Position numbers and translations under genes: made by a program
NCBI GenBank assembly: GCA_036986255.1
Contig: BTRF01000001.1
Coordinates: forward strand, 1-41,421
Origin: Patescibacteria group bacterium
GTDB taxonomy: Bacteria > Patescibacteriota > WWE3 > 9FT-COMBO-53-11
Direction: 5' to 3'
Length of the DNA: 41,421 bases
Notes under the pieces: model-generated
Told to the model about the DNA's origin: nothing
Database searches by the model: none
Seen by the model: only the letters and a program-made list of their open reading frames with translations
In this document: one piece after another, positions 1-36,573 of the stretch
Position numbering within the stretch: position 1 is the first letter of the stretch
Layout: each line of letters starts with the position of its first letter

Positions 1-3000
1 ACCCTCTCCATCAACACGGCTACCAACCGTCCCGTCATCTTCGGGGCCGGGCTGGTCACGGCGAACAACTTTACTTCTTCGGGGGCGGTGATCACGGGGG
101 GATCGATTGATGGCACTCCCATCGGCGCGGGCACGCCCTCTTCAGGGGCTTTTACGACTTTATCGGCCAACTCGGATGTGGACTTTCTCTTCGCCGGGGC
201 GGAGAACTTAGGAACCTCCGGAACCGTGTCGGGCACCGCGGGGGTGGATCTGATCTCGGCTTCGCTGACCAACGACACTACCAGCGGGAACCAGCGTCTG
301 CTGGTCCTCACCAACACGGGAACGGGGGTCACCGAGAACGGACTTCTCATCTCCAACACGGGAACGGGGACGACGGCGATGGAGATCTCGGGAACTTGGG
401 GAACGGGGATCCTGACCAATAATAACTCCATCAATGCGGGAACCGGTTCGATCACTTCCGGTGCTATTACTGCATCAGGGGCTTTGGCCGTAACCTCCGG
501 CGGGGCTTCCGTCACCGGGGACTTCTCGCTGGACGGGGATCTCTCCTTCACCGGCCCCCAGCAGATCACCTCTTCTACGGGGGACTTGACGGTGGACACG
601 GCCGGGAGCTTAATAATTGCGGATGCGGTGGATCTTAATAATATTTTAGACATCGATGCGGCTTCGGCTTTAGCTTTAACCGTGGGAGATGGAACTTCCG
701 ATACGCTAGTGGTGGATACCGTTGCCGATTCACTCACCGTGACCGGCGGGCTGTCCCAATTGGGCGGGGCGGCGACATCCTTTTCCGGGAATGTTACGCT
801 GGGAGATACCTCCGGAGACATGATCACCTTTTACGGCCTCCAGAACTCCAACCTGGTTCCCGCTATTCACAACTCTTACGATCTGGGCTCCCCTTCCAAC
901 AAATACGCCAACATCTACGCCGTCAATTTGATAGTGGAGTCCACTTCCGCCGAGGGGACTACGGCCAACTCCTTCATCATCAACTCCGACAATGCGACCG
1001 CCGATTTGGAGGATTCCAATCTGGAGTTCGAACGCGGAACCGAAGTTCCCAATGCGATCATCAGGTGGGACTCCGCCGGCGACGAGTTTGACTTTAACTT
1101 TCCGGCCAACATTACCTCGGCCGCTGCCCAGCTGAAGCTCTCCTTCGACGCTTCCAACTACATGACTGCAGGGGTGGCCTCGGACGGGACCGTCACCCTA
1201 AATGCGGCCGGGACGGGGGCGGGCTTCTCCTTCTCGGACGCCGTCACCGTTTCCGCCGGCAACCTGACCGTTTCGACGGGCGCTTTAACGGTTTCCGCCG
1301 GCGGGGCTTCCATCACCGGCGGGCTGTCAACAGACTCTTTAACGGTCTCGGGGACTTCCACTTTCAACGGAATCTCCACCTTCAACACCGACGCCGATTT
1401 CACTTTGGCTGAAACGGAGAACCTCAGCATCTCCAACACCGCCACCGGCACCACGGGAGTGGACCTGATCTCGGCTTCCCTGACCAACAACACCACTTCG
1501 GGCACCCAGCGGGGCTTGGCCCTCACCTTTAACGGTTCGGGAGTGACGGATGTGGGTATGATCCTAACCTACGCCGGGGGCGGTTCGGCCACCACTGCTC
1601 TGGAGATCGCGGGAACTTGGGGAACGGGGATCCTAACCAATGACAACTCCATCAATGCGGGAACGGGTTCAATCACGGGAGGGACGGGGACTTTCTCGGA
1701 GCTCAACCTCACGGGCCCGCTGACGATCACCTCCTCTACCACTCCCCAGATTTCGGTCCGCTTTGATGCCTCCAACCGCTGGGATGCCAGCGTTTCGGCG
1801 GCCGGAGCGGTGGCCTTTGACGCCTTCGGCGCCTCGGCCGGCTTTAGCTTCTCGGACAGCTTGACGGCTGCGGCCGGAGCGACCGTGGGAGACCGTGCCG
1901 GAACGGACACATTCGTGATGGACGCCTTGGGAACTGCCGACGGCACGTTCACCACCTACGACTCCAACCTTCTCCAATTCACGGCCAGCTACTGGGATGG
2001 GTTTGCCGCTCAGGATATTACCGCAGGCATCTTCCTGGACGCCGTCTCCACCGCGCCGGAATACGGCTTGGCTCTTCAGACTGCCGGGTCGACCCGCATA
2101 TTCGTGGACGAGGGCGGTTTTGTGGGTATTGGGGACTCGTCCCCGGCAGCCCATTTGGTAGTAGGGTCCGACGCCGGAGCCAACTACGCCAACGGGGTGG
2201 GAGATGTCTATGTTCAAAACGACTTGGAGGCGGATGGGACGATTTACGCCGGGACGATTATCCTTCCCAGCTTTACTCCCGGGTCGGTGATCTTTGCCGG
2301 AGCCGGCGGTACGCTAGCGCAAGATAATATCAACTTCTTTTGGGACGATACCGCTAAGGAGATTGGGATTGGGACGAATACTCCCGGCTACAAGTTGGAG
2401 GTGGTTGGGGATGCGCGGGTAACGACCAATCTCAGCTTTGGCACGGTCGGGGCTTATCTGGCCGGCGGCAGTCAAGGGGGAAGCATTGAGCTGGGGCCCG
2501 CCAACAGCGGAGCCGGGGAGACGCCTTTCATTGATCTCCACTACGGGGTTGGGACGGCTCAGGACTACAACTACCGCGTGGTCAACTCCGGCAACAATAT
2601 TCTGGAGTTTAAAGAATCCACTGGAGGGACTACGATGGTGATTAACGCCGGCCAAGTGGGGATTGGAATAGGGAGCGTTCCGGAGCAGAGGCTCCATGTC
2701 GGCGGGAATATCGCCGTGACCAATAATCAGGCCTTTATGGCCCGGAACGTCGGGGATACGGCCTACTACGAGCTGGCCAAGCTGGACAACACCGATCTGG
2801 CCCGCTACGGCAACTCAACTTTAAACATTGACATCACTCTCGGCGAGGTTGGGATTGGCATTACCAACCCGACCGGCAAGCTTCAGGTGGTTGGGGGTGA
2901 GGTTCGCATTGGAAACGCCGGAACGGTTGATTACGCCGCGGGGGACGGCGACCTCTATGTGGAAGATGTTTTGGAGGTGGATGGCGCATCATACCTTTCG

Positions 3001-6000
3001 GGTGTGACGGCAGGAGCGACCTCCCTCTCTGGCAACCTTACCCTTCTTAAGACCAACACGGCCACCTCCATCACCCAATACCCCTCCTATGACGCTATCT
3101 TCCAGGGCTCGGGCTGGGACACCACTCTGGTTGCTCCCGCCGATCTCACAGGGAGGTTGAGGGTAATCGCCGGATCGGGAGCGACCGGATCAATTCCCTA
3201 CCGCCTCGGAATTTTTGACAACACCCCCGCCGAGTTTGTTACCTTCGATCTCCTCAACCAAAGGGTGGGGATTGGGGCGGCGAGTCCAGGAGCGAAGCTG
3301 GATGTTCGGGGCGGGGCTGTCTTCAATGAAGACGCCGCTAATGAAGATTTCCGCGTGGAGGCAGTCAGCAACCCCTACGCTCTTTGGGTGGACGCCGATT
3401 ACAACACCAACCGTGGTGCTATCTTCCACAACCAATGGACCTCGACAACCGGACAGGTTGAACTCTCTACCTCTGGGTCCCTTTACGGGCAGGTGTATCT
3501 AAGATCGGGCTTTAACGCCGGATCCAGAAGAGCGTTTTTACGAGCCGCAGCGGCTGGCCAAATTTCTCTTAGCTTGGGGGATGGGTTAATCGGCGGGGAC
3601 TTTGTCCAGTATAGAACTGATGCCGGTGCTCAACAAGTTTATTTTGATTCCGACGCCGCCGAAAGCGTCGTGGGGCATACTTTTTACGCCCGACTGCAAG
3701 TAGGTTCAACTGCTCCTATTATCCTTCAAGGCGATAACGCCACTATTGCGTCCACAGTTGGGAATTTGACGCTTGATCCTATCGGCAGTCTGGTTATCAA
3801 CTCAGGCACAATTGACCTCTCGGGCCAGACCGTAGATGTGACCCTGAATAATGCTGTCGACGCGTTGAATTTCGACAGCAACACCCTGAGCATAGATGCA
3901 TTAAACGACAGCGTCGGCATCGGGACAACTAGTCCCTCTCAAAAACTAGTAGTTAAGGGTAGCGCTAGCGGTGACACTGGAATATTCCGGCTAGAGAACG
4001 ACAATACAGCAGATGGTTACAACATCTTCAGAAAGGATAGTACGGGGTTTCTGCACTTCGTTGGAAACCAGGCAACATACAGCGGCTACCGTTTCTTTGT
4101 GAATGACGCTACTGAAGTTTTGACAATATTAAATAATGGCAACGTCGGCATCGGGACTACAGCGCCTGGGTACAAGTTACATGTAAATTCTAGTTCTGCT
4201 GCAAATCCACTTTATGTTAGTTCCGGTGTATATAACAATGTCGCGGCTTTTATAAGCACAGATGATGGTGCGGTATTAACTTTGTCAGATAATGATACGA
4301 ACTCGTATATAAACGCACAAAATGGATACACATCCATAGGCGGCGCAAATAATCTGAATGCTACTAACTTGAATATTAACAATACATCTGGCAACGTCGG
4401 GATTGGGACGACGGCGCCGAGAGGTAAGCTAGATGTTGTTACCTCAACCACAAACGGGAATAATGTCTCAAGCTATTTTGGTCCGAACTACAGCTTAACC
4501 TTAGCAGGAAGACAAGATAATGATGCCGCAGCCTCAATACTCCAGAATGCTTTCGCAGAATATAATACGACAGGAGCAGCTACTTATAAATGGATAACCA
4601 CTCACGCTTCATTTGGAAGTAGAGGAATAGAATTCGGCTATGGAGCCACCAATGGTATAAAATTTTACGCCGATTCAGCAGCCACAACTGCCAATACAGC
4701 TTTTACTCCCACAGAAAGAATGAGAATAACAAACGCGGGCAACGTTGGGATCGGGACGACGAGTCCAGGTGGCACCTTAGATGTTCGTGGAGATGCATAT
4801 TTTACATCTGATTCATCCGTAGCTATAACTGCTAATGCAAGAATGTCTGCCAATGCAGGAACAAATGATAATTTGGTATTAAATGGAAAAGGGACTGGCG
4901 GAATATATTTGAATTGGGACAAAGGAACCGGTGGTGTGCATGTAGGAGCTGGTAGTACATCTGAAATATTTACAATCTTAAATTCCGGCAACGTTGGGAT
5001 CGGGACGACGAATCCAGGAACAAAGCTTGAAGTTAATGGCGAAGTTACACTCCCCTCTATCAAAGCCAGCACTAGTTTATACAATGGTACTGATATTAAC
5101 GACGCAGTTGCTCATAAAGTTTTTTTCAAAATTCCTCCTGGATCTGGTGTACCGCAATACTACAAGATTGCTAGAATTAAACTTCTAGGTACTTATGCAC
5201 AAAGTCTATTAACCGGTTGGATAAATTCCAGTGGTACTGCTCAGGTGGGTTATGAAAAAACCGCCTATTTTACCATAAAAGCTTACACTCAAGGTACGGA
5301 AACGACAAGTTTTTTAAACTACTCTAAACAAGGCGAAAATACTTCCAATATTATGGTTTATAAAATAGACGACGGGGACGGTTCCGGTCATGATTATTAT
5401 GATGTTTATGTCAATACTTATTGGTATAGCAATGCTGTTGGTGAAATAACTATTATTGGAAAACAGTATGGTAACTCCGCTGTTACGGTCTGGCAAACCG
5501 GATTGGATAGTGGCTCCTCCCCCCCTAGCTCCGGTACTCTGCAAGTTGCTAATGCAAATTATAATTTCGATACTACAGGCAACGTCGGCATCGGGACGAC
5601 GGCGCCGGGGGCAAAATTAGATGTTGCTGGCGGGGCAATAAGAACAGATAATCAGCTTATCTCCACGGTGGTCACAGGGACCGCCCCGCTGTCCGTCGCC
5701 TCTACCACTTTAGTTACCAATCTTAATGCTGATCTTTTGGATGGATACAGTTGGGGCAACGTACCGGACGGGACCGATATTTGGGTCAACGAATCTGGAG
5801 ATACAATGACAGGAACGCTTACCAGCTCTGTCGGGACTGGATCAAACCGTTTTGATTGGACTGGCGGAGCGATGAGAAGAATGACAGATCAGGGCGGGTT
5901 CTCTTTGTATTCTGATAGTTCGGTTTTGTTCCATGCTGGTGATAATGGAGTTACTTTAATATCCGATTTAGGAATTACCAACGCAACTACAACTGAAATT

Positions 6001-9000
6001 CTGTACCTAACAGCGGATAACGCTGTTAAGATAATTACTAACAGGCAGACTGATTATGCGTCATCTAAAACTTTTACATTTGCCACTAGCGGTGATTTAA
6101 CTATTCCTGGCGACCTGACGGTGAGCGGAGGGGATGTCACCGGAATTGGCGGGGCGGCAATTGATCTTGGTGAAACTGCTTCTGGAGATATTTACATGAC
6201 TGGGGATGTTGACATTGCTGGCCACCTGGCGGTTGGGGCAAATGGGGTAATAGGTACTAACAACCTCATTGACATCGACGAAACCATGTCTACCAATGCA
6301 AACACTATGGGCATACGCCTTGAACCAACATTCAACTATACAGCTACGGCAAATAGGACCAACTATGGATTATTGGCTCTTGCCCAAGCAAACACCGTCA
6401 ACGAAAGCACATTCAACGTTGATGTCAGAGGAATTCAGGGTGAAGTATCGGTAGACGGTACCTCAACCCTCAATGATGCCTGGGGAGGATTTTTCCTTGT
6501 TGACCAAAACAGCACCACCGGCCAAATTGACACGGCCCAGGCAGTCAGAACCGACCTTCAAGTGGCTTTATCAACAACAATAACTAATGGCTATGGAATT
6601 TATACTAATTTAACTAACTCCGGCACAATCACCAACTATTATGGCCTTAGAATTGCTGATGTGATCGAAGGTACTCAAACCAATGCTTACGCCATTTACA
6701 TAGACGAGGGTGATGTTATTTTGGATGGGGATGGAAATGGTATTGCCGGAGGAACCAACGCTGGTTCGGATCTCTTTTTCGGAGAAGGACGTGACGCCGC
6801 TATTTGGTACGATGGGGCAGATTTAAATATCGATCCTCAAATCGTCGGCACAGGAGATCTAGTAGTACCAAACGGCAACGTCGGGATTGGGACGACTTCG
6901 CCTGGGTATAAGCTAGAAGTTGAAGGAACTGCAAATATTGATGCAGGCGCGTATGAATTAGATGTTTTAAATACAGGTCTTGGTGTAACCTCATCTGGTG
7001 TATATGGCGGAGATGATGGAACTAAAAAAGCAGTTTATCATTTTGGTGGAGCTGGTGCGGATCTAAGAGTCGGTCCTTCCTATGTTTCGGACAGGGACTA
7101 TATTGAACTTCAAGCTGGAGGAACTGTTTCTTCTGTGGTTACTGTAAATGAGAGATTAGACATATCTAACTCAGGAGGTGATATTACATTGAGTCCATCA
7201 GGCAACGTCGGCATCGGGACGACGACACCAGGAACGAAGCTGGATGTTGCTGGTGGACCGATAAGGACCGACAACCAGCTTATCTCCACGGTGGTCACGG
7301 GGACCGCCCCGCTGTCCGTCGCCTCTACCACGTTAGTTACCAACCTCAATGCGGATTTGTTGGACGGTAGACACGGCTCTGGGTTTTTATATTACAGTAC
7401 GGGAGGTTCACTTGATGTAAATAGCACACCAGGGTACTCACAGCTTTATGTCGGTTCATCTGGTACTTGGACTAATAGGGGGCCAACGGGAAACAATGCT
7501 AGTGCGCTGTTTAGCCTAAATACCCATCCTGGTGACTATTACAGCCAGATATGGTTTGATACTGCCGGAGATACCTTATACCACCGCTCAAAAAATGCAG
7601 GGGCTTGGCGAGGCTGGAATGAAATTTGGACTTCTGGCAACGACGGCTCGGGTTCGGGCCTGGATGCGGATTTGTTGGATGGATGGAACTTGGCCACAGC
7701 CTCCACAGGAAATACTGTAGTTGGCAGAAACGGATCTGGAGATATTAATGCTCGACTTTTTAGATCAGAATACGACACCACCAATGCCACCATTAATTAC
7801 ATTATGACCCAGATTGACACCGTTTCTAATAACTATATTCGTCCATCAACCCCAGCTCAGTTAGTAACAGGACTTGGATTAGAAGCCGGCGGCAGCAGAG
7901 ATATTTGGGTAGAAAAAGCCGGGGATACGATGAGTGGGGCGCTCTCTTTCGGCAGTAGCATGCTTAATGAACTGACTCCAAGATTTATCGTCTATGATGA
8001 TAGCTTCAACGCCAGTTACATGACATACGGCGTCGACGCTGTCACAAGATATAAAGCTACTAGTAATTTTATGTGGAAATCTGTACCTACAGGGGCAACG
8101 CGACTATCTGCTGCCGGTACGCAGACTATGGTCTTGGACACGGCAGGCAATCTGACGGTGGGTGGCAATCTGACAGTGAGTGGGAGAAACATCTATCTTG
8201 GGTCGCAAAGACTTTATGGGGATAACAACGCTTACCTCAATTGGTACGGCAATCATAGTACTACTACTGGTATGCAATTCCGCGACCTGGAAGGCTCTCT
8301 TTATGGATATGTTTATGGTGATGGTAATGGTGCTAACTTCGGTCTGCTGAACTCCGCCGGAGGCTGGCGGGTGAGGGTTGATGCCTCAAATGTAGAGCTA
8401 TACGGCGGAGTCTACATGGGCACTGCATACGCCAGCATCCTCTACGACCGCAACAACACTGGCTACTATGTGGACCCAGCCTCTGGACTCTCAGCCAACT
8501 TCGCCGGCTACATCGACGCTACTTACTTCAGGGATGAAAACAACACCGGCTACTATGTGGATCCGGCGAGTACGAGCAATCTTAATGCGGCAAATTTTGC
8601 CGGCACAGTTGCCGCCAACAACGGTATCAGTGTTGATGGTAGTACTGTTATTGACAACGGCGCCGGCTGGCACCGATCCTATAATGCTACTGGCTGGTAC
8701 AACGGGACGTACGGTGGCGGTGTCTGGATGGATCAATCTACCTATGTACGAGTCTATGGTGGTAAAGGCTTCACCGTTCCGGGCAGCGTCGGCATAGGGA
8801 CGACGAGTCCGGCTACGAATTTAGCTCTTGGTGACTCTTCAAGTACGGTTGCCAGTAGATCAATTCGTCTTTATGGGTATGCCGCCGCCGCTACTGGTTA
8901 CTTTGAAATCTCAGCGAGCGGCAACTGGGCACAGCTTTACAATTCGAGAGGGAATGTTGCCTTTAAGATGGGTACCGATAACCAGTATCAATTTCTTAAT

Positions 9001-26692: not shown

Positions 26693-26795
26693 AGGTCAGC
26701 TGATAGAACGGCTTCCGATGAATCGGAAGCCTAGCAATCATCCGATGGTTGATTGTTAATAGCTAATAGGCTATAGTTAACAGAAGATAGCTCTG

Positions 26796-26904
26796 TCCGA
26801 AGACAGTGAGGGTCCGTTGAGGACTTAATCAGACTCACCGAGGAGAAGTAACCTAAAGGGTTGGGAAATTTGATGAGACCTCGGTGAGCACCCGAGGTTT
26901 TTTT
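26796..26904 (+). promoter_or_regulatory. L10-leader-like attenuator upstream of rplJ
   Basis: CTCACCGAGG (26834-26843) pairs with CCTCGGTGAG (26879-26888). The latter segment overlaps an alternative hairpin, CCTCGG (26879-26884)/CCGAGG (26892-26897), which is followed by seven T (26898-26904) ending right at the rplJ ATG. This gives an antiterminator/terminator layout. Confidence 0.6.
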
Positions 26905-27432
26905 ATGGTTACGAAAGAAAAAGCTAAACAAGTTGAAAACTTGATTGATGAAATTGCCCGATCCGAGGCGGTTGTGTTCTCTGATTACGCCGGGTTTACG
27001 GTTACCGAAATGACGGAGCTCCGAAGAAAGCTCTCTGAGTTGGGAGCGGTCCTTCAGGTGACTAAAAATTCACTTCTTAAGCTTGCCCTGGAGAAGGGGG
27101 GGCTTCCTTTGCCCAGGGAGTTGACGGGTCCTACCGCGACTCTTTTTTCTGGAGAAGCGGATCCTATCGAGAGTATTAAGACTTTGGCTTCCTTTATCAA
27201 GGAGAAGGGAAAGGGGGAGGTCAAGTCCGGTTTCTTTGAGAAGGCTTTTGTAGCGGCGGAGGAAGTTGGGGCACTAGCGTCTCTACCTGGAAAAAAGGTT
27301 TTGCAGGCTCAACTGGTTAACCGGCTAGCGGCCCCCATATATAATCTAGCGTATGTTTTGGGTAACGGTCCTCAAAAGTTGGTATCTGTTTTAGATCAGA
27401 TTACAAAACAGAGGGGAGGTGGAACAGAGTAA
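26905..27432 (+). CDS. rplJ: 50S ribosomal protein L10
   Basis: The track ORF starts at a GTG at 26884, which lies inside the terminator hairpin. The ATG at 26905 ([17 protein letters not shown]) is the plausible start. Synteny is rplA-rplJ-rplL. Confidence 0.9.
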
Positions 27433-27913: not shown

Positions 27914-27938
27914 ATAGCAAATCAACCCTTAGGGTTGA
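27914..27938. repeat. REP-like element, copy 3 (exact 25-mer)
   Basis: atagcaaatcaacccttagggttga, 16 nt downstream of the rplL stop. It may double as a terminator hairpin. Confidence 0.85.
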
Positions 27939-29839: not shown

Positions 29840-32800
29840 ATGCCTAATCCTGCCCTGGAGGGCCCCATTACAATTCCGTCGAATGACCAGCTACGGCGGT
29901 CGTTTAGGTTAGCTACTCCTTCTAAGTTTCGTCGTTCGGCTCCCAAGATAATTACTCTTGTTTTGACCTTTCTCTTAATTGGTCTTGCTTTTAAGTACTA
30001 CCCTATCGTTGGGCAGGTGTTGGGCGTTCAAACCCAAGGGGGGAGTGCCGTAACCCTGGATCGTATTTTGGACGACAGCTTTAACCTCTCCCTTGCCGGA
30101 TATGTGGAGGGCAAGAGGTTAAAATCTTTTGCTACTTCCGGGGCTCCTCTTACTGTTTCAAGTACTGGATTAGTCACGAATCTCAACTCTGATTTTCTTG
30201 ACGGGCAACACGGTAGCTACTACCTTGGCGCTACTACTTTAGATTCTCTTGATTCCACTTCCTTTCTCAGGTCTGATGTGAGTGACAGCTATACCTCCGG
30301 TACTTTGACCTTCAACTCTGGAACGACCCTTGATGTTAACGGCGACTTCACTATCGCCGATACCGTCATTAATCTTGATGGAGGAGCAACGACTATTCAA
30401 ACTGTATCTGGATCACTTTCGCTTAAAGGGTCGGGGTTGGAGTTTGAAGGAACATCTGCCAGCAGCGATGTCGAGTTCTTCCGCGACCTGGCCAACGGGG
30501 GGCAGGGAAACAACGGCCTTTACCTTTTTAGCTACAACACCGGGGTGGGAGGGACCCGCTCCGGGCGGCTGTGGGTCACTACGACGGGAGAGTTCCGAAT
30601 CGATCCGAGCGTCTCCAACCGCCTCTCCTTGGATACTTATGCCGAAAGCTACCTCACAGCCTTCGAAAGTTCTGCCGCAGGAGAGAACCGGGAGTTTCGG
30701 ATCTACGGCTGGAACACGGCTCTCGCCGCCCCGGCTTACGGCCTCTTCCAATATGACGACACCAATGACCGCTTCCGCTTGGATGTCTCTACCGGCGATT
30801 TGGAACTGGACGATGATGTTTATATTACGGGATTGCTGGATGTTGTTGGGACCCTCACGGCCAATGGCAGAGTGGGGGTGGGGGTTGATCCGGAGTACGC
30901 TCTCCATGTTCGGACTGAAGACTACACCGGGACCCAGACGCTCATGCGGAGTGCTTTGGTGGATCTTTTCCTTTACGCCGATGACGCCACCCCCGACACC
31001 AATTCTTACAACACTATTCAAGGGCGGGCCCGCTACTACGGAGGGGTGGGGGACACCGCTTACGCTATCAGGGCATTGCGGGGGAGCGTGTGGAATACGG
31101 GTGCCGGAACGATCACCGAGGCCGTTGGGTCTTTTACAACTATTCGGAATGGCAGTACGGGTACGATTGAGAGGGCCATCGCTTTCTACACCCCCGGAGT
31201 TGCTAATAGTTCGACGGGGACCATCCAGAACGCTTACGGTATGCTAAGTGGAAATGTTGATAATACTGGTGGAGGAACGATAGTTAATAACTACGGTCTG
31301 TATATTGAAGACCCGACGTGTGTTGGCTGTACTAATACTTGGTCTATCTATTCTGAGGCGGGTGACAACTTCTTTGGCGGGTCGGTGGGGATTGGGACGG
31401 CAACCCCTGACGGTAAATTACATGTTCTAAGTGCAGATTCGGGTGCTGCTCCCTCCACCTTCGCAGATGACTTTATCGTTGAAGGTACCGGCTCTATGGG
31501 AATGACACTTGCGGCTAATAGCAGCGGCTCTGGAAATATTTATTGGGCCAACGAAGCCACAAACCAAGCCGCATCTATTTCATATTCTCACTCATCCGAT
31601 TCGTTGTCTATTTCAAATGCCTCCGGAACTCACATTGTTATGGGAGCTTCCGAATTAGTCATCAACGAGTTTAGTTATGACAACGACTTCCGTATAGAAT
31701 CCGATACCTCTCAGTATATGTTCTTCTTGGATGGTGGTAATAATGAAATTTTAATTGATGCGTCTAACACCCTCACTACAGCGGATGGAACACTGCATGT
31801 AAGCACAGCTTCTGCCGGGGCCACCAGCGCGAATGCAGTTGCTGATGATCTCGTTGTTGAGAACAGCGCCGAAGGAGGAATAACTATCCTTACGCCCGAT
31901 ACCAACGCGGGCAGTTTAACCTTCGGCTCTTCGGGCGGAAATCTCAAAGGTCGGATACGCTATGACCACAGCGCTGAGGCAATGGAGTTCTATACGAATA
32001 CGCTTGTCCGCTTGTATCTCTCGGAATCGACGGGCTTTGTCATCAACGCTGGAAGCACGGATTTCGATACAAGAATTGAGGGCGATACTGAACCCTATCT
32101 GCTGTTTGCGGATGCGGGTAGCGATAGGGTGGGGATTGGGACTAACATTCCCGGTGCGAGATTAGAAGTTAAGGGTGCTACAAACGACGCCACCGCTTAT
32201 GCTCTCGACGCGAGAAACAGCGATGACAGGAGCCTCTTTTTTGCGAGAAACGACGGGACGCTTGAGATCGGCAACGCTTTACTGACAGGTCCTACTACCA
32301 GCGTTACCATCTATCCTAAGCTTTATTCTATGGAGCCCTCCTTCTTTACGAATGGTACTTTTCTGGGTCTTGCTACAGGAACCTGGGGGTACTTGAGTGT
32401 AGTAGAGGACTATGGGGCTGAAGGTATTGCAAGAATAGTAGATACAGGCATAACCGATGACGCTGGCGTTTCAGTTTTGCGTTTGGGATTGGGTACTATA
32501 ACCACCGGTGTAGCTACCAGATTTGTTACTTTTTATGCCGCCGCAACTACTGAGAGCGATGGGACTGGAGTGGGGAGGATCCGCCTAAACAACGGTGGCG
32601 TCGCTTACGAAACAGGCGGCGCGGACTACGCGGAGTACGTTACCGTTTCCGGCTCGGTTAGCCAGGGTGACATCATCTCCATCCCCTCCTCGGCAGGGAA
32701 GAAGGCTTTGGTTGGAGAAAGAGTCGTTGGGGTAGTTTCTGATACCGCCGGGTTTGTGGGGAACGCCAAATCGGAATCCCCTGGGCCAAACCAGGCCATC

Positions 32801-33316
32801 GTTGGGTTTATAGGGCAGATCAGGACTAAGGTTACAGGAAACATAAAGTCCGGGGACTTAATAACCGCCTCAAACATAGCTGGTGTTGGTACAAAAGCAG
32901 AAGGCAGAGGATCAGTTGTTGGAATCGCTCTTGAATCTCACAGTGGGGCAGCGGTTTCCAAGATCAAGGTTTTTGTCAATCCTGGCTGGTGGGATCCGGG
33001 AACCGAGATTGTCAGTGATGGTACGGCCGGTGCCGATATGAACATACCGGACCAGCTTAAAGTTTTGGGTGTTGAGGCCGAAGTAGGAATCTTCCAAACC
33101 CTAAGGGTTAAGGTAGAGGCTGTTTTCTTAACCCTTAGGGTTAAAGTGGCCGAGATCGCTTCTGCAGTGGTAGATACGCTCAAGGTTGGAAACCTAACGA
33201 TTGGGGAGGCAGACGCCCCGGCTGGAATTACCATTTACGACCGAGTAACCGGAGAACCCTACTGCGTCTCTATCTCCGACGGCGATTGGCTCAAAGAACT
33301 GGGCGAGTGTGAATAG
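29840..33316 (+). CDS. Large (1158 aa) N-terminally membrane-anchored surface fibre protein, paralogous in modules to the giant protein
   Basis: TM helix IITLVLTFLLIGLAFKYY. Also APLTVSSTGLVTNLNSDFLDGQHGSYY, two VGIGT..P..KL.V motifs, and the C-terminal module DYAEYV..VVGVVS..GDLITAS..WWDP, which is homologous to the giant protein's C-terminus. Confidence 0.8.
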   Translation: MPNPALEGPITIPSNDQLRRSFRLATPSKFRRSAPKIITLVLTFLLIGLAFKYYPIVGQVLGVQTQGGSAVTLDRILDDSFNLSLAGYVEGKRLKSFATSGAPLTVSSTGLVTNLNSDFLDGQHGSYYLGATTLDSLDSTSFLRSDVSDSYTSGTLTFNSGTTLDVNGDFTIADTVINLDGGATTIQTVSGSLSLKGSGLEFEGTSASSDVEFFRDLANGGQGNNGLYLFSYNTGVGGTRSGRLWVTTTGEFRIDPSVSNRLSLDTYAESYLTAFESSAAGENREFRIYGWNTALAAPAYGLFQYDDTNDRFRLDVSTGDLELDDDVYITGLLDVVGTLTANGRVGVGVDPEYALHVRTEDYTGTQTLMRSALVDLFLYADDATPDTNSYNTIQGRARYYGGVGDTAYAIRALRGSVWNTGAGTITEAVGSFTTIRNGSTGTIERAIAFYTPGVANSSTGTIQNAYGMLSGNVDNTGGGTIVNNYGLYIEDPTCVGCTNTWSIYSEAGDNFFGGSVGIGTATPDGKLHVLSADSGAAPSTFADDFIVEGTGSMGMTLAANSSGSGNIYWANEATNQAASISYSHSSDSLSISNASGTHIVMGASELVINEFSYDNDFRIESDTSQYMFFLDGGNNEILIDASNTLTTADGTLHVSTASAGATSANAVADDLVVENSAEGGITILTPDTNAGSLTFGSSGGNLKGRIRYDHSAEAMEFYTNTLVRLYLSESTGFVINAGSTDFDTRIEGDTEPYLLFADAGSDRVGIGTNIPGARLEVKGATNDATAYALDARNSDDRSLFFARNDGTLEIGNALLTGPTTSVTIYPKLYSMEPSFFTNGTFLGLATGTWGYLSVVEDYGAEGIARIVDTGITDDAGVSVLRLGLGTITTGVATRFVTFYAAATTESDGTGVGRIRLNNGGVAYETGGADYAEYVTVSGSVSQGDIISIPSSAGKKALVGERVVGVVSDTAGFVGNAKSESPGPNQAIVGFIGQIRTKVTGNIKSGDLITASNIAGVGTKAEGRGSVVGIALESHSGAAVSKIKVFVNPGWWDPGTEIVSDGTAGADMNIPDQLKVLGVEAEVGIFQTLRVKVEAVFLTLRVKVAEIASAVVDTLKVGNLTIGEADAPAGITIYDRVTGEPYCVSISDGDWLKELGECE
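33097..33142. repeat. REPIN-like inverted doublet of the REP core inside CDS 29840-33316
   Basis: aaccctaagggttaag (33097-33112) and cttaacccttagggtt (33127-33142) are perfect reverse complements (16 nt) separated by 14 nt. They are translated as QTLRVKVEAVFLTLRVKV. Confidence 0.8.
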
Positions 33317-34419: not shown

Positions 34420-34944
34420 CTACCCCTTCATCTGCTCCTCTAACTGGCGTTCGATCTCTTCAGGGTTTAGCGGTTCCAACATCTTTTTAAGTTCAGGGTC
34501 GCGGCCTACATCCACCCCCATCTTTTTCAGGATTACGGCCAGGATTCTCAACACCTTGGTGAGCTCCTGCTCGGAGATTAGGTTGATTTGGAGCTCGGTC
34601 TCTTCGCGCAAACTGCTAATTCTTTCCTGGCGGTTTTGGGTGATGAGGACGAAGATCGCTAAAATGATTGCTTCAAGAGAGACGAACGTAATTAAGAGGA
34701 TGTATGGGTAGGGGTCAAATGGTTTGACGGTTGGAATCACTCCGGAGTTGATTGCGATCCATGCCGCAAAGAAGAGAAGATTGAGGATCAGGAATTCGAC
34801 AGTCCCGAAGGTGGAGACGATTTTGTCTTCAAGCCTTTCCATGGGCGAACGCCGTCCCCGCGCCTTGGCTTCGATGCTTTTAACGGCGGTTTTAAGGGCG
34901 CGGCGCCGGCTGATTTTGTTTCGACGGACTCCTTTTAGTGGCAT
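34420..34944 (-). CDS. DUF1003-family membrane protein
   Basis: The ATG at 34944 (MPLKGVRRNK) is preferred over the TTG at 34962. The segment FGTVEFLILNLLFFAAWIAINSG...DPYPYILLITFVSLEAIILAIFVLITQNRQ is typical of the family. Confidence 0.65.
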   Translation of the reverse strand: MPLKGVRRNKISRRRALKTAVKSIEAKARGRRSPMERLEDKIVSTFGTVEFLILNLLFFAAWIAINSGVIPTVKPFDPYPYILLITFVSLEAIILAIFVLITQNRQERISSLREETELQINLISEQELTKVLRILAVILKKMGVDVGRDPELKKMLEPLNPEEIERQLEEQMKG

Positions 34945-34982
34945 TCTAGAGGATTTTAGCAATTTACAAGTGACAAGCGGTG

Positions 34983-35056
34983 TGGCAGGCCCGGGAGGAT
35001 TCGAACCCCCAAATCCCGCTCTGGAGGCGGGCGGTTTGCCGTTAGCCTACGGGCCT
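34983..35056 (-). tRNA. tRNA-Trp (anticodon CCA), CCA end encoded
   Basis: The reverse complement reads AGGCCCG-TA-GGCTAACGGCAAACC-G-CCCGC-CTCCAGA-GCGGG-ATTTG-GGGGG-TTCGAAT-CCTCC-CGGGCCT-G-CCA. The acceptor, anticodon and T stems pair; the D stem has one C.A mismatch. Confidence 0.88.
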
Positions 35057-35081
35057 TCATCTTAATCTTAGCACCTGAAGC

Positions 35082-35249
35082 TCAGATCTTAGTCTCTTTA
35101 TGAGGAGTCTGCTTCCGACACTTGTTGCAGAACTTCTTAAGCTTCAGCGCTTCCTGCGTGTTGATACGGTTCTTCTTGGTAGTGTAGTTATGCTTGCCGC
35201 AATCCCCACACTTCAGCCGAATGAACGGTCTTGCTCCTTTTTTAGCCAT
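35082..35249 (-). CDS. rpmG: 50S ribosomal protein L33 (55 aa; below the ORF-track length cutoff)
   Basis: Hand translation gives [55 protein letters not shown] followed by TGA. It has the Cys4 zinc-ribbon pattern and the KETK end of L33. Confidence 0.88.
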
Positions 35250-35330
35250 AGCTTCGTAATTTTATCACGGTGAGATTCTTAATTCCGCTGGCGCCAAAGT
35301 GTAGTAGGGATAGTGCCGCGTCTGATGCGG

Positions 35331-35406
35331 TGGAGCCCGGTGGCGGAATCGAACCGCCGACCCCGTTCTTACCAAGAACGTGCTCTTCCGACTGAGCTAA
35401 CCGGGC
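35331..35406 (-). tRNA. tRNA-Thr (anticodon GGU), CCA end encoded
   Basis: GCCCGGT-TA-GCTC-AGTCGGAA-GAGC-A-CGTTC-TTGGTAA-GAACG-GGGTC-GGCGG-TTCGATT-CCGCC-ACCGGGC-T-CCA. All stems are perfect. Confidence 0.95.
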
Positions 35407-35524
35407 ATATATTTAGGGTGGGCGAGTCGAACTCGCCTGCTCATCTTCGTCTAACTCTAAAATTAGAAAGGAAAAGTCTGACTTTTCTGCTTCTAATTTC
35501 TTCTTTGAATCGAGTTAGACTCGA

Positions 35525-35611
35525 TGGTGCTGGGGGAGGGATTCGAACCCCCGTAGGCGTAAAGCCAACTGGTCTACAGCCAGTCCCGTTTGTCCGCTTC
35601 GGTACCCCAGC
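35525..35611 (-). tRNA. tRNA-Tyr (anticodon GUA), class II with a long variable arm, CCA end encoded
   Basis: GCTGGGG...ACTGG-CTGTAGA-CCAGT-(variable arm TGGCTTTACGCCTAC)-GGGGG-TTCGAAT-CCCTC-CCCCAGC-A-CCA. Confidence 0.9.
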
Positions 35612-35727
35612 AAGTTTTAAAGCTGTCTATCTGCCCGCATCCAACCCTTCATTACCCTACTCCTTAGTATAAAACTATTTTACACTGGCTCACCCCAGTC
35701 AGGAAGGCAAAGCCGCGTCTGACGCGG

Positions 35728-35918
35728 TGGAGCCGCCCCACGGGATCGAACCGTGAACCTGCCGTTTATCACGTCAAACGTGAGTAGCGATTGACTTCTG
35801 GAGCCAGGGGTGGGATTTGAACCCACGACCCCCTGTTTACAAAACAGGTGCTCTGGCCGCTGAGCTACCCTGGCCAATCACGTCCAAAACGGCTGCTCTA
35901 CCATTGAGCTAGGGCGGC
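35728..35918 (-). tRNA. tRNA gene whose two perfectly matching halves are separated by a 123-nt insert in the anticodon loop (interrupted, split or intron-containing tRNA; identity unresolved)
   Basis: 5' part (35889-35918): GCCGCCC-TA-GCTC-AATGGTA-GAGC-A-GCCGT. 3' part (35728-35765): ACGGC-AGGTT-CACGG-TTCGATC-CCGTG-GGGCGGC-T-CCA. The acceptor, D, anticodon and T stems are all perfectly complementary. The intervening 35766-35888 contains tRNA-Thr(UGU). Confidence 0.55.
35799..35874 (-). tRNA. tRNA-Thr (anticodon UGU), CCA end encoded, located inside the interrupted tRNA
   Basis: GCCAGGG-TA-GCTC-AGCGGCCA-GAGC-A-CCTGT-TTTGTAA-ACAGG-GGGTC-GTGGG-TTCAAAT-CCCAC-CCCTGGC-T-CCA. All stems are perfect. 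Confidence 0.95.
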
Positions 35919-36117
35919 TTGGATTAAATCGTATCCGATTTTCAAAACGGCTCTCTGCCATTGTTTCGTCCTCGCTCCTGCTTGAACGAACGGTAGTGAT
36001 CCTTAGTTTTCATTACCGGGCTGCGCCAGCACGATTAAGTTCTAAAAGAACTTTCAAACGATTACCCTATCGTTTACAGTTTAGCATTTGATTTCGTACC
36101 ATACCACCCCATAGTTA

Positions 36118-36146
36118 TTGACTTACCACAGCTTTCAAGATAGACT
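36118..36146 (+). promoter_or_regulatory. Candidate sigma70-type promoter
   Basis: TTGACT (36118-36123), a 17-nt spacer, then TAGACT (36141-36146). It lies about 40 nt upstream of a strong SD (AAAGGAGAGG, 36171-36180) and the ATG at 36186. Confidence 0.3.
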
Positions 36147-36185
36147 TCAAACGAATACAAAACTAAGAAGAAAGGAGAGGTTGTG

Positions 36186-36573
36186 ATGCCTGTTGTAGTA
36201 CTTAATTACGATCCCGCAAGGGTACGGCGAGAAATGGCAGTCTACATTGCCCAGGCTCTGCCCAGGTGGGTAGCTGGTGCTCTTTCGGTCGAGGAGGCCG
36301 ATAGGCCGACTCACAAAAGATGACATTGAAGTTTGGGTGAGGGAGCGTCAGCCCTCCGACGTTGGCAGCTATCAGATTGAAGTCGTGGTTTGGGCTAAGC
36401 ACTACCGCGCTCGCGAAGAACAGATTGACGAGGCAGCGGCGCTCATTGACTCATATATCAGACTGGTGGTGGAGAAGTATATCGCACAGCTGGTGGACGT
36501 GGTCGTTCCCTTTCCGATCAAGAGTTTTGTTTACATCCTGCTATGCCCGGCCGGCTTTGCTGAGAGCAGCTGA
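36186..36573 (+). pseudogene. Small hypothetical gene split over two frames at an A4 run (frameshifted gene, sequencing error or two small ORFs)
   Basis: The ATG at 36186 has a strong SD and opens a 45-codon ORF ending in TGA at 36321-36323. The +1 frame is open from 36277 to the TGA at 36571-36573. Removing one A from the aaaa run at 36315-36318 joins them as ...EEADRPTHK-DDIEVWVRERQ.... Confidence 0.4.

What the first reader, a model, noticed from the sequence alone, without database searches (positions are those of the whole stretch)
35728..35918. A complete tRNA-Thr(UGU) is nested inside the anticodon loop of another, otherwise perfect, tRNA gene
The following is read on the minus strand.
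- The 30 nt at 35889-35918 encode a tRNA 5' part: acceptor GCCGCCC, D arm GCTC/AATGGTA/GAGC, and anticodon-stem strand GCCGT.
- The 38 nt at 35728-35765 encode the matching 3' part: ACGGC, variable loop AGGTT, T arm CACGG-TTCGATC-CCGTG, acceptor GGGCGGC, U73 and CCA.
- Every stem is perfectly complementary, which argues against a decayed pseudogene.

The two parts are separated by 123 nt (35766-35888) where a 7-nt loop is expected.
- That insert contains a flawless tRNA-Thr(UGU) at 35799-35874.
- The inner tRNA is bracketed by a 7-bp helix, GUGAUUG (just 5' of it) and CAAUCGC (5 nt 3' of it).
- The insert ends carry a near-identical direct repeat: UUUGGACGUGAU at the 5' junction and UUUGACGUGAU at the 3' junction.

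The anticodon of the outer tRNA is ambiguous. It reads UGG if an intron sits at the canonical 37/38 position, and the loop GUGAUAA (GAU) if read from the 3' junction.

Known bacterial tRNA introns are group I ribozymes of about 200 nt or more, and archaeal introns use bulge-helix-bulge motifs. Neither fits here. RNase P and RNase Z processing of the inner tRNA would necessarily cut the outer transcript into two halves. The locus could therefore be a split tRNA that works through annealed halves, a novel intron type, or a very recent disruption.
Basis: partly seen in the sequence, partly recalled or inferred. Interest (0 to 1): 0.85.

Follow-up and report, generated by a model that had tools for sequence, protein, structure and literature searches.

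The report
One tRNA gene inside another
In an uncultured WWE3-like (Patescibacteria) bacterium, a working threonine tRNA gene sits inside the anticodon loop of a second, otherwise flawless tRNA gene; relatives suggest the outer gene is an older copy broken by a structured insertion, not a new intron, but why it is still flawless is unexplained.

Summary
On the minus strand, 35918-35889 and 35765-35728 form a canonical tRNA body. The 123 nt between them hold an intact tRNA-Thr(UGU) at 35874-35799, bracketed by a 7-bp helix.

The predicted minimum-energy fold is a double cloverleaf. ARAGORN calls the outer gene once the inner tRNA is masked.

The outer tRNA is most likely a second tRNA-Thr(UGU) interrupted after G35. 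It has the GCCG acceptor start, U73 and the loop ends UUUG...UAA. A tRNA-Ile(UAU) reading is not excluded.

No group I core, bulge-helix-bulge motif or known ribozyme is present.

Relatives (candidate division WWE3; formyltransferase (Fmt) 61-69% identical) never show the nested gene. Two lineages carry the same insert without the tRNA inside it. It is a small three-way junction, lying in fragmentary tRNA-Thr remnants just upstream of their working tRNA-Thr(UGU). The whole tRNA cluster is a mosaic of exchanged alleles and gene remnants.

Best reading (about 0.5): the outer gene is a displaced tRNA-Thr copy. It now serves only as leader and trailer of the inner tRNA.

Against this, the outer gene is perfect and the insert's hairpins keep pairing through compensatory changes. 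A live tRNA-like RNA therefore remains possible. Reads, a full tRNA inventory and small-RNA data would decide.

The parts
35889..35918 (-). Outer tRNA, 5' part: acceptor strand GCCGCCC, U8 A9, D arm GCUC-AAUGGUA-GAGC, A26, anticodon-stem strand GCCGU
   Evidence: Sequence. Called as part of a tRNA when joined to the 3' part. Local hit of the tRNA-Thr covariance model at 35909-35877, 13.1 bits.
35882..35888 (-). Junction strand UUUGGAC. The first four bases are most likely U32 U33 U34 G35 of the original UUUGUAA loop. U32 and U33 can pair with A38 and A37, which lengthens the stem to 7 bp.
   Evidence: Sequence. Fold. Homologous UUUAGAC in L013 and UUUGGGC in L007.
35875..35881 (-). Hairpin 1, 5' strand GUGAUUG. 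It abuts nucleotide 1 of the inner tRNA.
   Evidence: Pairs with 35793-35787 in the minimum-energy fold. Homologous to GCGAUC of the closed hairpin GCGAUC-GGA-GAUCGC in relatives.
35799..35874 (-). Inner tRNA-Thr(UGU), 76 nt, with encoded CCA and U73. It is presumed to be the working gene.
   Evidence: ARAGORN. Rfam tRNA 72.5 bits. 87.5 bits against the clade's tRNA-Thr model.
35794..35798 (-). GAAGU spacer after the inner CCA. It resembles the Thr-Tyr spacers of relatives (GAAGAC, GAGGUUU, GAAACU).
35787..35793 (-). Hairpin 1, 3' strand CAAUCGC
   Evidence: AUCGCUAC is identical in L013 and L007.
35784..35786 (-). UAC linker between the two hairpins, invariant in the three versions known
35769..35783 (-). 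Hairpin 2, UCACGU-UUG-ACGUGA.
   Evidence: Fold. Three pairs differ on both sides from UUUCGC-UAGC-GCGAAA of L013/L007 and still pair.
35766..35768 (-). UAA, most likely U36 A37 A38 of the original anticodon loop
   Evidence: Sequence. AUAAAC(C/G)GCAGG is conserved in L013 and L007.
35728..35765 (-). Outer tRNA, 3' part: ACGGC, variable loop AGGUU, T arm CACGG-UUCGAUC-CCGUG, acceptor strand GGGCGGC, U73, CCA
   Evidence: Covariance-model hit at 35788-35728, 20.1 bits.
35713..35727 (-). Terminator-like hairpin CCGCGUCAGACGCGG followed by CUUUGCC, directly after the outer CCA. A near-identical copy follows tRNA-Thr(GGU) at 35330-35315.
   Evidence: 22 of 23 bases identical. Two matches against 0.01 expected.
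35921..35963 (-). Decayed tRNA-Thr-like fragment upstream of the outer gene: CAAUGGCAGAG-AGCCGUUUUGAAAAUCGG...GAUUUAAUCC. It repeats the outer gene's D loop to anticodon loop (35906-35885) at 20 of 22 positions. Its loop UUUGAAA is not interrupted.
   Evidence: Read from the sequence. Alignment with the L013 leader. Not detected by the covariance model, so this rests on sequence similarity only.
35965..36017 (-). Two leader hairpins: GGUAAUGA...UCACUACC and UUCGUUC...GGACGAA. They are homologous to the leader of L013 at about 75% identity.

Best explanation
The outer gene is an older copy of tRNA-Thr(UGU). A less likely identity is a tRNA-Ile(UAU)-like paralogue.

Its anticodon loop was broken after G35 by a structured insertion about 40 nt long, a three-way junction. 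In this genome the first hairpin of that insertion also carries the working tRNA-Thr(UGU).

The locus is transcribed as one unit: leader, outer 5' part, inner tRNA, outer 3' part, terminator hairpin. RNase P and the 3' processing enzymes release the inner tRNA.

The two outer pieces (44 and 71 nt) are leader and trailer. They can stay paired as a tRNA-shaped by-product, but they have no anticodon loop and do not decode.

The arrangement arose by recombination in a tRNA cluster where alleles are exchanged between WWE3 lineages and displaced copies are left behind as remnants.

Shown: the anatomy, the homology of the insert to relatives, the absence of known intron signatures, and the mosaic nature of the cluster.

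Inferred: transcription as one unit, processing, loss of function of the outer gene, and the order of events.
For: 1. None of the distinct related clusters has an outer tRNA: L007/8, L011, L013-18, L020/21, L022/23, L033, L036, L039-42. Each has one tRNA-Thr(UGU) at the head of Thr-Tyr-Thr-(L33)-Trp.

2. L013-18 and L007/8 carry the same insert, closed and without a tRNA inside. It reads GUUUU(A/G)G(A/G)C, GCGAUC-loop-GAUCGC, UAC, UUUCGC-UAGC-GCGAAA, UAAACCGCAG. It lies immediately upstream of their working tRNA-Thr and is flanked only by fragments of a tRNA.

3. In L013 the remnant starts with GCCGAGGU directly after the same promoter that in L011 drives an intact tRNA-Thr beginning GCCGAGGUAGCUCAACGGCAGAGCA. 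L033 has the same promoter followed directly by the other allele. So the insert is found inside a dead tRNA-Thr.

4. The window itself has a further decayed tRNA-Thr-like fragment at 35963-35921 and an 8-nt remnant of an older tRNA-Tyr allele at 35698-35691. L007 has a 20-nt tRNA-Tyr remnant followed by a decayed copy. 'Old copy upstream of new copy' is thus a recurring pattern.

5. The tRNA alleles are mosaic. The window's Trp is 100% identical to that of L022, its Thr(GGU) 95% to L007 and its Tyr 93% to L022, while Fmt is only 61-69% identical. One tRNA-Thr(UGU) allele is 97-100% identical in four lineages whose tRNA-Tyr genes are 79-91% identical.

6. There is no group I core, ribozyme or other Rfam family at E up to 10, and no bulge-helix-bulge in the fold.

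7. The candidate 'anticodon' strand is not conserved: UUUGGAC, UUUAGAC, UUUGGGC.

8. The outer gene has the Thr-type acceptor start GCCG and U73. The inner tRNA therefore supplies the same decoding function.
Against: 1. The outer gene shows no decay at all: 21 of 21 Watson-Crick pairs, every conserved tertiary position, an encoded CCA and its own terminator-like hairpin. Yet the insert it carries is shared with lineages whose fourfold-degenerate sites are saturated (identity 0.30-0.47).

2. The window's insert differs from the L013/L007 version by about 22%. The difference includes three compensatory pairs in hairpin 2 (20 of 500 shuffles reach the observed value). If the insertion happened once, an unselected outer gene should have picked up several disruptive changes.

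3. The inner tRNA lies exactly in the loop of hairpin 1, so the three-way junction can still form.

4. Hairpin 1 pairs the inner tRNA's 5' leader right up to position -1. That is not what one expects if only the inner tRNA mattered.

5. Only three distinct versions of the insert are known. The L007 and L013 versions are identical and are probably one recent transfer.

6. The history, including how the tRNA moved between 'inside hairpin 1' and 'after the insert', could not be reconstructed.

7. The rest of the genome could not be searched for other tRNA-Thr or tRNA-Ile genes.
Confidence: 0.5

Rival explanations
1. The outer gene with its three-way junction is a live, selected RNA that does not decode. 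It is a tRNA-shaped molecule in which the anticodon is replaced by a structured module.

Possible roles are a processing or stabilising scaffold for the embedded tRNA, a ligand for a tRNA-binding enzyme, or a chargeable non-ribosomal tRNA. The inner tRNA rides in a peripheral loop where it does no harm.
For: - The outer cloverleaf is perfect although the insert is old or widely shared.
- Three compensatory pairs in hairpin 2 and one in the first leader hairpin.
- The leader and the insert are 75-78% identical between lineages with saturated synonymous sites, about as conserved as the working tRNAs themselves.
- The inner tRNA sits in the loop of hairpin 1 and preserves the junction.
- A dedicated terminator-like hairpin follows the outer CCA.
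Against: - In L013 and L007 the junction persists without any tRNA body around it, so it does not need the outer tRNA.
- Most relatives lack both the outer gene and the junction.
- The L007 = L013 identity is better explained by recent transfer than by constraint.
- No known RNA family matches.
- No candidate partner protein lies next to the locus.
- Only one genome shows the complete form.
Confidence: 0.2
2. This is a true interrupted or split decoding tRNA. Either the insert is removed and the halves are ligated, giving tRNA-Thr(UGU) (join 35|36) or tRNA-Ile(UAU) (join 34|35), or the annealed halves work without ligation. The mechanism would be new for bacteria.
For: - The halves are perfect and join into a canonical tRNA.
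- For the 34|35 join the 5' exon ends in U and the insert ends in G, as in group I introns (rule as described in bioRxiv 10.1101/2020.01.27.920355).
- Intact Patescibacteria tRNA-Ile(UAU) genes share the D arm and anticodon stem.
Against: - There is no ribozyme core and no bulge-helix-bulge.
- The insert is 116-123 nt, of which 76 nt are a tRNA.
- RNase P and RNase Z leave 5'-phosphate and 3'-OH ends. These do not suit RtcB (established enzymology, not tested here).
- Annealed halves would lack an anticodon loop.
- The U/G boundary rule fails in L013 and L007, where the last base is A.
- U73 does not fit tRNA-Ile.
- A tRNA-Thr(UGU) product would duplicate the inner tRNA.
- The arrangement is not conserved in any relative.
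Confidence: 0.08
3. The nesting is an assembly chimera of co-occurring strains that carry different tRNA-Thr alleles.
For: - The contig comes from a metagenome-assembled genome.
- The only independent contig of the same organism (Logan DRR500112, 2.5 kb) stops about 410 nt short of the locus.
- The cluster is known to vary between lineages.
Against: - No exact repeat longer than 14 nt exists in 34900-36400 that could mislead a k-mer assembler.
- A chimera would not create two perfectly complementary tRNA halves plus a 7-bp helix around the inserted gene.
- Both outer/insert junction sequences occur contiguously in independent assemblies of other lineages (L007/8, L013-18).
Confidence: 0.04

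Closest known systems
[quoted passage not shown]
   Same: The interruption lies inside the anticodon loop of a bacterial tRNA gene. For one possible join (after U34), the 5' exon ends in U and the insert ends in G.
   Different: No catalytic core is present (Rfam). The insert is about 40 nt without the tRNA, far below ribozyme size. The boundary rule is not kept in relatives. The flanking exons are fragmentary in relatives.
Archaeal bulge-helix-bulge tRNA introns that host a functional RNA (for example the box C/D RNA in the tRNA-Trp intron of haloarchaea; from my own knowledge)
   Same: A functional small RNA is embedded in the interruption of a tRNA gene. The host and guest RNAs come from one precursor.
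   Different: No bulge-helix-bulge is present. The organism is bacterial. The guest is a complete tRNA, released by RNase P and RNase Z rather than by a splicing endonuclease. There is no evidence that the host is rejoined.
Split and permuted tRNA genes (Nanoarchaeum, Caldivirga, Cyanidioschyzon; PMC3218864, PMC4390854)
   Same: Processing would yield two tRNA halves held together by the acceptor and anticodon stems.
   Different: Here the halves are on one transcript, around another gene. Known split tRNAs are ligated by archaeal enzymes and keep an intact anticodon loop after joining.
tRNA pseudogenes and remnants left by recombination or integration at tRNA genes (integrative elements that use the anticodon loop as attachment site; from my own knowledge)
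   Same: A tRNA gene is disrupted in the anticodon loop. A short direct repeat lies at the two junctions. Fragments of older alleles lie nearby. An intact copy of the same isoacceptor is supplied.
   Different: No integrase or other mobility gene is at the locus. The insert is tiny and structured. The replacement is a whole tRNA placed inside the old one. The disrupted gene shows no decay.
Intervening sequences of bacterial rRNA genes, excised without religation (from my own knowledge)
   Same: A structured insertion in a stable RNA gene would, after excision, leave fragments held together by base pairing.
   Different: Fragmented rRNA keeps its functional sites. A tRNA cut in the anticodon loop loses its function.

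Membership tests
Group I intron in a tRNA gene | Conserved catalytic core (P3-P9) detectable with Rfam Intron_gpI | tested here: not met
   No hit at E up to 10 in 34800-36400 or 35700-36300.
Group I intron in a tRNA gene | U before the 5' splice site, G as the last intron base, and a spliced product with a normal 7-nt loop | tested here: inconclusive
   Met only for the join after U34, which gives UUUAUAA. The homologous inserts in L013 and L007 end in A.
Group I intron in a tRNA gene | Length of about 200 nt or more of intron RNA | tested here: not met
   The insert is 116-123 nt, of which 76 nt are the inner tRNA. It is about 37-40 nt in relatives.
Archaeal/eukaryal protein-spliced tRNA intron | Bulge-helix-bulge (3-nt bulge, 4-bp helix, 3-nt bulge) at the exon-intron junctions | tested here: not met
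   The minimum-energy and centroid folds give a three-way junction with strands of 5, 3 and 1 nt. No alternative pairing found by inspection gives the motif.
Archaeal/eukaryal protein-spliced tRNA intron | Splicing endonuclease and RNA ligase encoded in the genome | not testable with these tools
   Only 41 kb of the genome is available. Neither is in the window.
Split tRNA (trans-joined halves) | The halves are joined into a mature tRNA with an intact anticodon loop | not testable with these tools
   This needs RNA data.
Disrupted tRNA gene / pseudogene | Interruption incompatible with a 7-nt anticodon loop, with no recognisable removal signal | tested here: met
Disrupted tRNA gene / pseudogene | An intact gene for the same isoacceptor is present | tested here: inconclusive
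   The inner tRNA-Thr(UGU) qualifies if the outer gene is Thr(UGU). Its Thr identity rests on GCCG, U73, UUUG...UAA and context. Ile(UAU) is not excluded.
Disrupted tRNA gene / pseudogene | Decay of stems and conserved positions | tested here: not met
   None in the window. Heavy decay in the homologous remnants of L013 and L007.
Integrative element at a tRNA attachment site | Integrase or recombinase gene, and an element bounded by direct repeats of the tRNA 3' part | tested here: not met
   No recombinase between Fmt and DUF1003. The repeat (13 of 15 nt) spans the exon-insert junction and is not a copy of the tRNA 3' part.
Known small self-cleaving ribozymes (hammerhead, twister, pistol, hatchet, HDV-like) | Match to the Rfam family model | tested here: not met
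   No hit at E up to 10 in the window locus or in the L013 leader.
tmRNA / tRNA-like domain with an insertion | G3-U70 alanine identity, reduced D arm, tag reading frame | tested here: not met
   The acceptor has C3-G70 and the D arm is complete. ARAGORN finds no tmRNA. The Rfam tmRNA hit scores 9.4 bits against a threshold of 47.

The most novel reading that the evidence does not exclude
The outer gene is alive. It would be a bacterial tRNA, of Thr(UGU) or Ile(UAU) type, or a tRNA-shaped RNA. It would carry a conserved, non-group-I, roughly 40-nt three-way-junction module in its anticodon loop, and that module would be either removed or used by an unknown mechanism. Here the module would host a second, complete tRNA in a peripheral hairpin loop. 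That would be a new class of bacterial tRNA interruption.
Probability: 0.12. Interest if true: 0.9.

Novelty: new variant of a known kind. Interest (0 to 1): 0.55.

Why it matters
If the outer gene is a relic, the locus is an unusually clean snapshot of tRNA gene turnover in reduced Patescibacteria genomes. An incoming allele lands inside the resident gene, and both remain readable. It also shows that tRNA alleles are exchanged between WWE3 lineages faster than the surrounding genes diverge.

It is a practical warning as well. Standard tRNA finders report only the inner gene, so such loci go unseen.

If the outer gene is alive, bacteria would have a tRNA interruption that is neither a group I intron nor of the archaeal type. 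The small three-way junction upstream of or around tRNA-Thr would then be a new structured RNA element whose function can be tested.

Tried and rejected
- **Group I intron, known ribozymes, tmRNA, other Rfam families.** No hits.
- **Bulge-helix-bulge.** Not present in the folds.
- **ARAGORN intron mode on the native sequence.** It misses the outer gene and gives spurious low-score calls. It works only after the inner tRNA is masked.
- **Search for other nested or insert-bearing copies.**
  - Metagenome scan for the two halves 100-130 nt apart: 0 hits.
  - Metagenome scan for the insert's 3' part continuing into something other than the L013-type junction: 9 hits, all chance matches in coding DNA.
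  - Three viral-contig scans and a BLAST against phages: only generic tRNA-Thr matches.
- **Identity of the outer tRNA from overall similarity.** Not informative once the 23 bases used as search pattern are left out: 21-24 of 37 positions match for Thr alleles against 17-24 for Ile.
- **Similarity of the leader to the start of the L33 gene** (17 of 21). Judged to be chance, because it is absent in L013.
- **A 26-codon reading frame running from the leader into the outer gene.** Not conserved, since L013 has ACG where the window has ATG.
- **Integron attC-like core sites, REP-like GTAG plus palindrome.** These are resemblances only. The window's own REP-like palindrome CAACCCTTAGGGTTG, which flanks a Y1 transposase gene, does not occur in the tRNA cluster.
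- **A nuclease or recombinase gene at the locus.** None in the window. L007 has a GIY-YIG reading frame inside its cluster.
- **Literature.** No report of a tRNA nested in a tRNA, or of non-group-I tRNA introns in Patescibacteria, in the library searched.
- **History of the rearrangement.** The L013 form can be derived from a window-like form by deletion between the two CAAYGGYAGAG repeats. No simple path moves the working tRNA between 'inside hairpin 1' and 'after the insert'.
Full report
**1. What is there**

On the minus strand the window carries a tRNA cluster between the formyltransferase (Fmt) gene (37877-36972) and a DUF1003 gene (34962-34420). ARAGORN and Rfam report four tRNAs:
- Thr(UGU) at 35874-35799
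- Tyr at 35611-35525
- Thr(GGU) at 35406-35331
- Trp at 35056-34983

A 55-codon L33 gene lies between Thr(GGU) and Trp.

They are 35918-35889 (acceptor strand, D arm, anticodon-stem strand) and 35765-35728 (anticodon-stem strand, variable loop, T arm, acceptor strand, U73, CCA).
- All 21 stem pairs are Watson-Crick, and the conserved tertiary positions are canonical.
- Joined by any 7-nt loop, the pieces are called a tRNA.
- ARAGORN in intron mode finds the outer gene only when the inner tRNA is masked.
- A covariance model made only from relatives' tRNA-Thr(UGU) genes hits both pieces separately.
- The minimum-energy fold of the 194 nt is the nested double cloverleaf: -80.7 kcal/mol, z = -3.0.

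**2. Anatomy of the insert**

- The anticodon stem can extend to 7 bp (GCCGUUU/AAACGGC).
- From it emerge UGGAC, then hairpin 1 (GUGAUUG ... CAAUCGC), whose 'loop' is the inner tRNA plus GAAGU.
- Then come UAC, hairpin 2 (UCACGU-UUG-ACGUGA) and U.
- The insert is thus a three-way junction.
- A terminator-like hairpin follows the outer CCA. A copy identical at 22 of 23 bases follows tRNA-Thr(GGU).

**3. Which tRNA is the outer one?**

A scan of one genome per species with the outer D arm plus anticodon-stem 23-mer found four Patescibacteria genes. All are intact tRNA-Ile(UAU), and none is from WWE3. A join after U34 would give the loop UUUAUAA.

That similarity is partly forced by the search pattern. 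Outside the pattern the Ile genes are no closer than the clade's Thr genes, and they have A73.

The outer gene shares GCCG/CGGC at the top of the acceptor stem, and U73, with every tRNA-Thr of the clade. Its loop ends UUUG...UAA are those of UUUGUAA cut after G35. An upstream fragment that repeats its D loop to anticodon loop has the uninterrupted loop UUUGAAA (35963-35921).

I read the outer gene as a tRNA-Thr(UGU) paralogue at about 70%, against about 25% for Ile(UAU). UGG is also what ARAGORN prints by default.

**4. Known intron types**

- Rfam scans at E up to 10 give no group I intron, ribozyme or other family here or in the homologous leader of a relative.
- No bulge-helix-bulge can be drawn.
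- The insert is too small for a ribozyme.
- For the U34 join the boundaries are U and G, as in group I introns (rule as in bioRxiv 10.1101/2020.01.27.920355). The homologous inserts of relatives end in A.

**5. Relatives**

The contig belongs to a metagenome-assembled Patescibacteria genome (protein GMR18903.1). The nearest Fmt proteins, at 61-69% identity, are from candidate division WWE3. The only other contig of the same organism (Logan DRR500112) ends about 410 nt before the locus.

Fourteen related clusters were recovered through Fmt and L33 homologues. All have Thr(UGU)-Tyr-Thr(GGU)-L33-Trp, or part of it. None has an outer tRNA.

Two allele types of tRNA-Thr(UGU) occur.
- One has D loop AAYGGCA and variable loop RGGUU (L011, L036, L022, L039-42).
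- The other has anticodon stem CCUGU/ACAGG (L013, L033, L020, L007). The window's inner tRNA is nearest to this type.

Two lineages carry the insert.
- In L013-18 the usual promoter is followed by GCCGAGGU, the first 8 nt of the first allele type as in L011.
- Next comes about 117 nt with two hairpins, then CAACGGCAGAGCA GCUGU UUU, then the closed three-way junction (AGAC, GCGAUC-GGA-GAUCGC, UAC, UUUCGC-UAGC-GCGAAA).
- Then follow UAA ACCGC AG and immediately the second-type tRNA-Thr.
- L007/8 has the same junction and tRNA, with even less tRNA remnant.
- L033, close to L013, has the promoter followed directly by the second-type tRNA.

The window's leader (36017-35965) is homologous to the two L013 hairpins.

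The insert therefore exists elsewhere, inside an evidently dead tRNA-Thr, next to the gene that replaced it.

**6. The cluster is a recombination hot spot**

- The tRNA alleles do not follow the genome tree. The window's Trp equals that of L022, its Thr(GGU) is 95% identical to L007 and its Tyr 93% to L022.
- The second tRNA-Thr allele is 97-100% identical in four lineages whose tRNA-Tyr genes are only 79-91% identical.
- Remnants of older tRNA-Tyr alleles precede the live gene in the window (35698-35691) and in L007. L007 also has a GIY-YIG reading frame in the cluster.
- The orientation of the cluster relative to its neighbours also differs between lineages.

**7. Most likely explanation (about 0.5)**

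The outer gene is a displaced tRNA-Thr copy broken by the junction-bearing insertion. In this genome the replacement tRNA lies inside hairpin 1.

The unit is transcribed together, and RNase P and 3' processing free the inner tRNA. The outer pieces are leader and trailer without decoding function. Transcription, processing and loss of function are inferences.

**8. What does not fit**

- Fourfold-degenerate sites between the window, L013 and L007 are saturated (0.30-0.47).
- Yet the leader and the junction are 75-78% identical, and hairpin 2 differs by three compensatory pairs.
- The L013 form can be derived from a window-like form by deletion between the two CAAYGGYAGAG repeats. This suggests that a complete, insert-bearing outer gene is old.
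- An unselected 68-nt tRNA body should then have decayed, but the window's is flawless.
- Either the event is recent and the shared pieces spread horizontally, or the outer RNA is under selection. The identical L007 and L013 copies show that horizontal spread happens.
- I give 0.2 to a live non-decoding tRNA-shaped RNA, 0.08 to a spliced or split decoding tRNA and 0.04 to an assembly chimera.
- A chimera is unlikely for two reasons. No repeat longer than 14 nt exists at the locus. Both outer/insert junctions are seen in independent assemblies.

**9. Novelty and score**

I found no report of a tRNA nested in a tRNA in bacteria. As a disrupted gene it is a new variant of a known kind.

Its interest lies in three things: the perfect double cloverleaf, the evidence for exchange of tRNA alleles, and the small conserved junction of unknown role. 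Interest 0.55.

The decisive data are reads across the junctions, the genome's full tRNA and enzyme inventory, and small-RNA sequencing.

Noticed in passing
window 10484-11277, also 11672-11686 and 27923-27937: A 229-aa IS200-like Y1 transposase gene (10536-11225, minus strand) is flanked on both sides by direct copies of CATAGCAAATCAACCCTTAGGGTTGAA. The palindrome CAACCCTTAGGGTTG occurs at four intergenic sites (12 strand matches against 0.21 expected). This looks like a REP/RAYT-type system. A homologous gene lies next to dprA in L007 and L009.
   Followed up: partly
window 35082-35249 (minus strand): A 55-codon ribosomal protein L33 gene lies between tRNA-Thr(GGU) and tRNA-Trp, as in relatives. 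It is too short for the default ORF list.
   Followed up: yes
window 35677-35698 (minus strand); L007 7640-7780: An 8-nt remnant of an older tRNA-Tyr allele (CTGGGGTG) and a promoter-like GTGTAAAAT precede the live tRNA-Tyr. L007 has a 20-nt tRNA-Tyr 5' remnant, a decayed copy with an insertion in its D loop, and then the live gene.
   Followed up: partly
window 35315-35330, 35509-35523 and 35713-35727 (minus strand): Three tRNA genes (Thr(GGU), Tyr and the outer tRNA) are each followed directly after CCA by a short hairpin. Two of the hairpins are near-identical (CCGCRUCAGACGCGG), and relatives do not have them.
   Followed up: partly
L007 7185-7454: An 89-aa GIY-YIG nuclease-domain reading frame sits between tRNA-Tyr and tRNA-Thr(GGU) in the closest relative's cluster. 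The window has nothing comparable.
   Followed up: no
loci L007, L011, L013, L020, L022, L033, L036, L039 and the window: The tRNA alleles of the cluster are mosaic relative to the protein genes. One example is that the window's tRNA-Trp is identical to that of L022 although Fmt is 61% identical. Another is that one tRNA-Thr(UGU) allele is 97-100% identical across four lineages. This suggests frequent horizontal exchange or gene conversion of tRNA genes in WWE3.
   Followed up: partly
L002 2642-2716, L003 373-444, L004 4136-4208, L006 5856-5930: Uhrbacteria, Vogelbacteria, Campbellbacteria and another Patescibacteria genome carry tRNA-Ile(UAU) genes. Their D arm and anticodon stem are identical to those of the outer tRNA and close to WWE3 tRNA-Thr(UGU). 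This hints that the AUA decoder of these lineages is related to tRNA-Thr(UGU).
   Followed up: no
upstream of tRNA-Thr(UGU) in L011, L013, L020, L022, L033, L036, L039, L041: A conserved motif CGTGTTAAAAT (variants GTGTTAGAAT, TGTTAAAC) lies about 10 nt before the first tRNA. It is probably an extended -10 promoter without a recognisable -35. The simple sigma-70 scan does not pick up such sites.
   Followed up: no
window 26779-26912 (plus strand): An Rfam L10 leader match (47.6 bits, threshold 44) lies upstream of the L10/L12 genes. It is ordinary.
   Followed up: no
window 88-10476 and 29840-33316 (plus strand): Two very large reading frames (3462 and 1158 aa) are present. The second is rich in Gly/Thr/Ser repeats. 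They are probably surface proteins typical of Patescibacteria. They were not examined.
   Followed up: no
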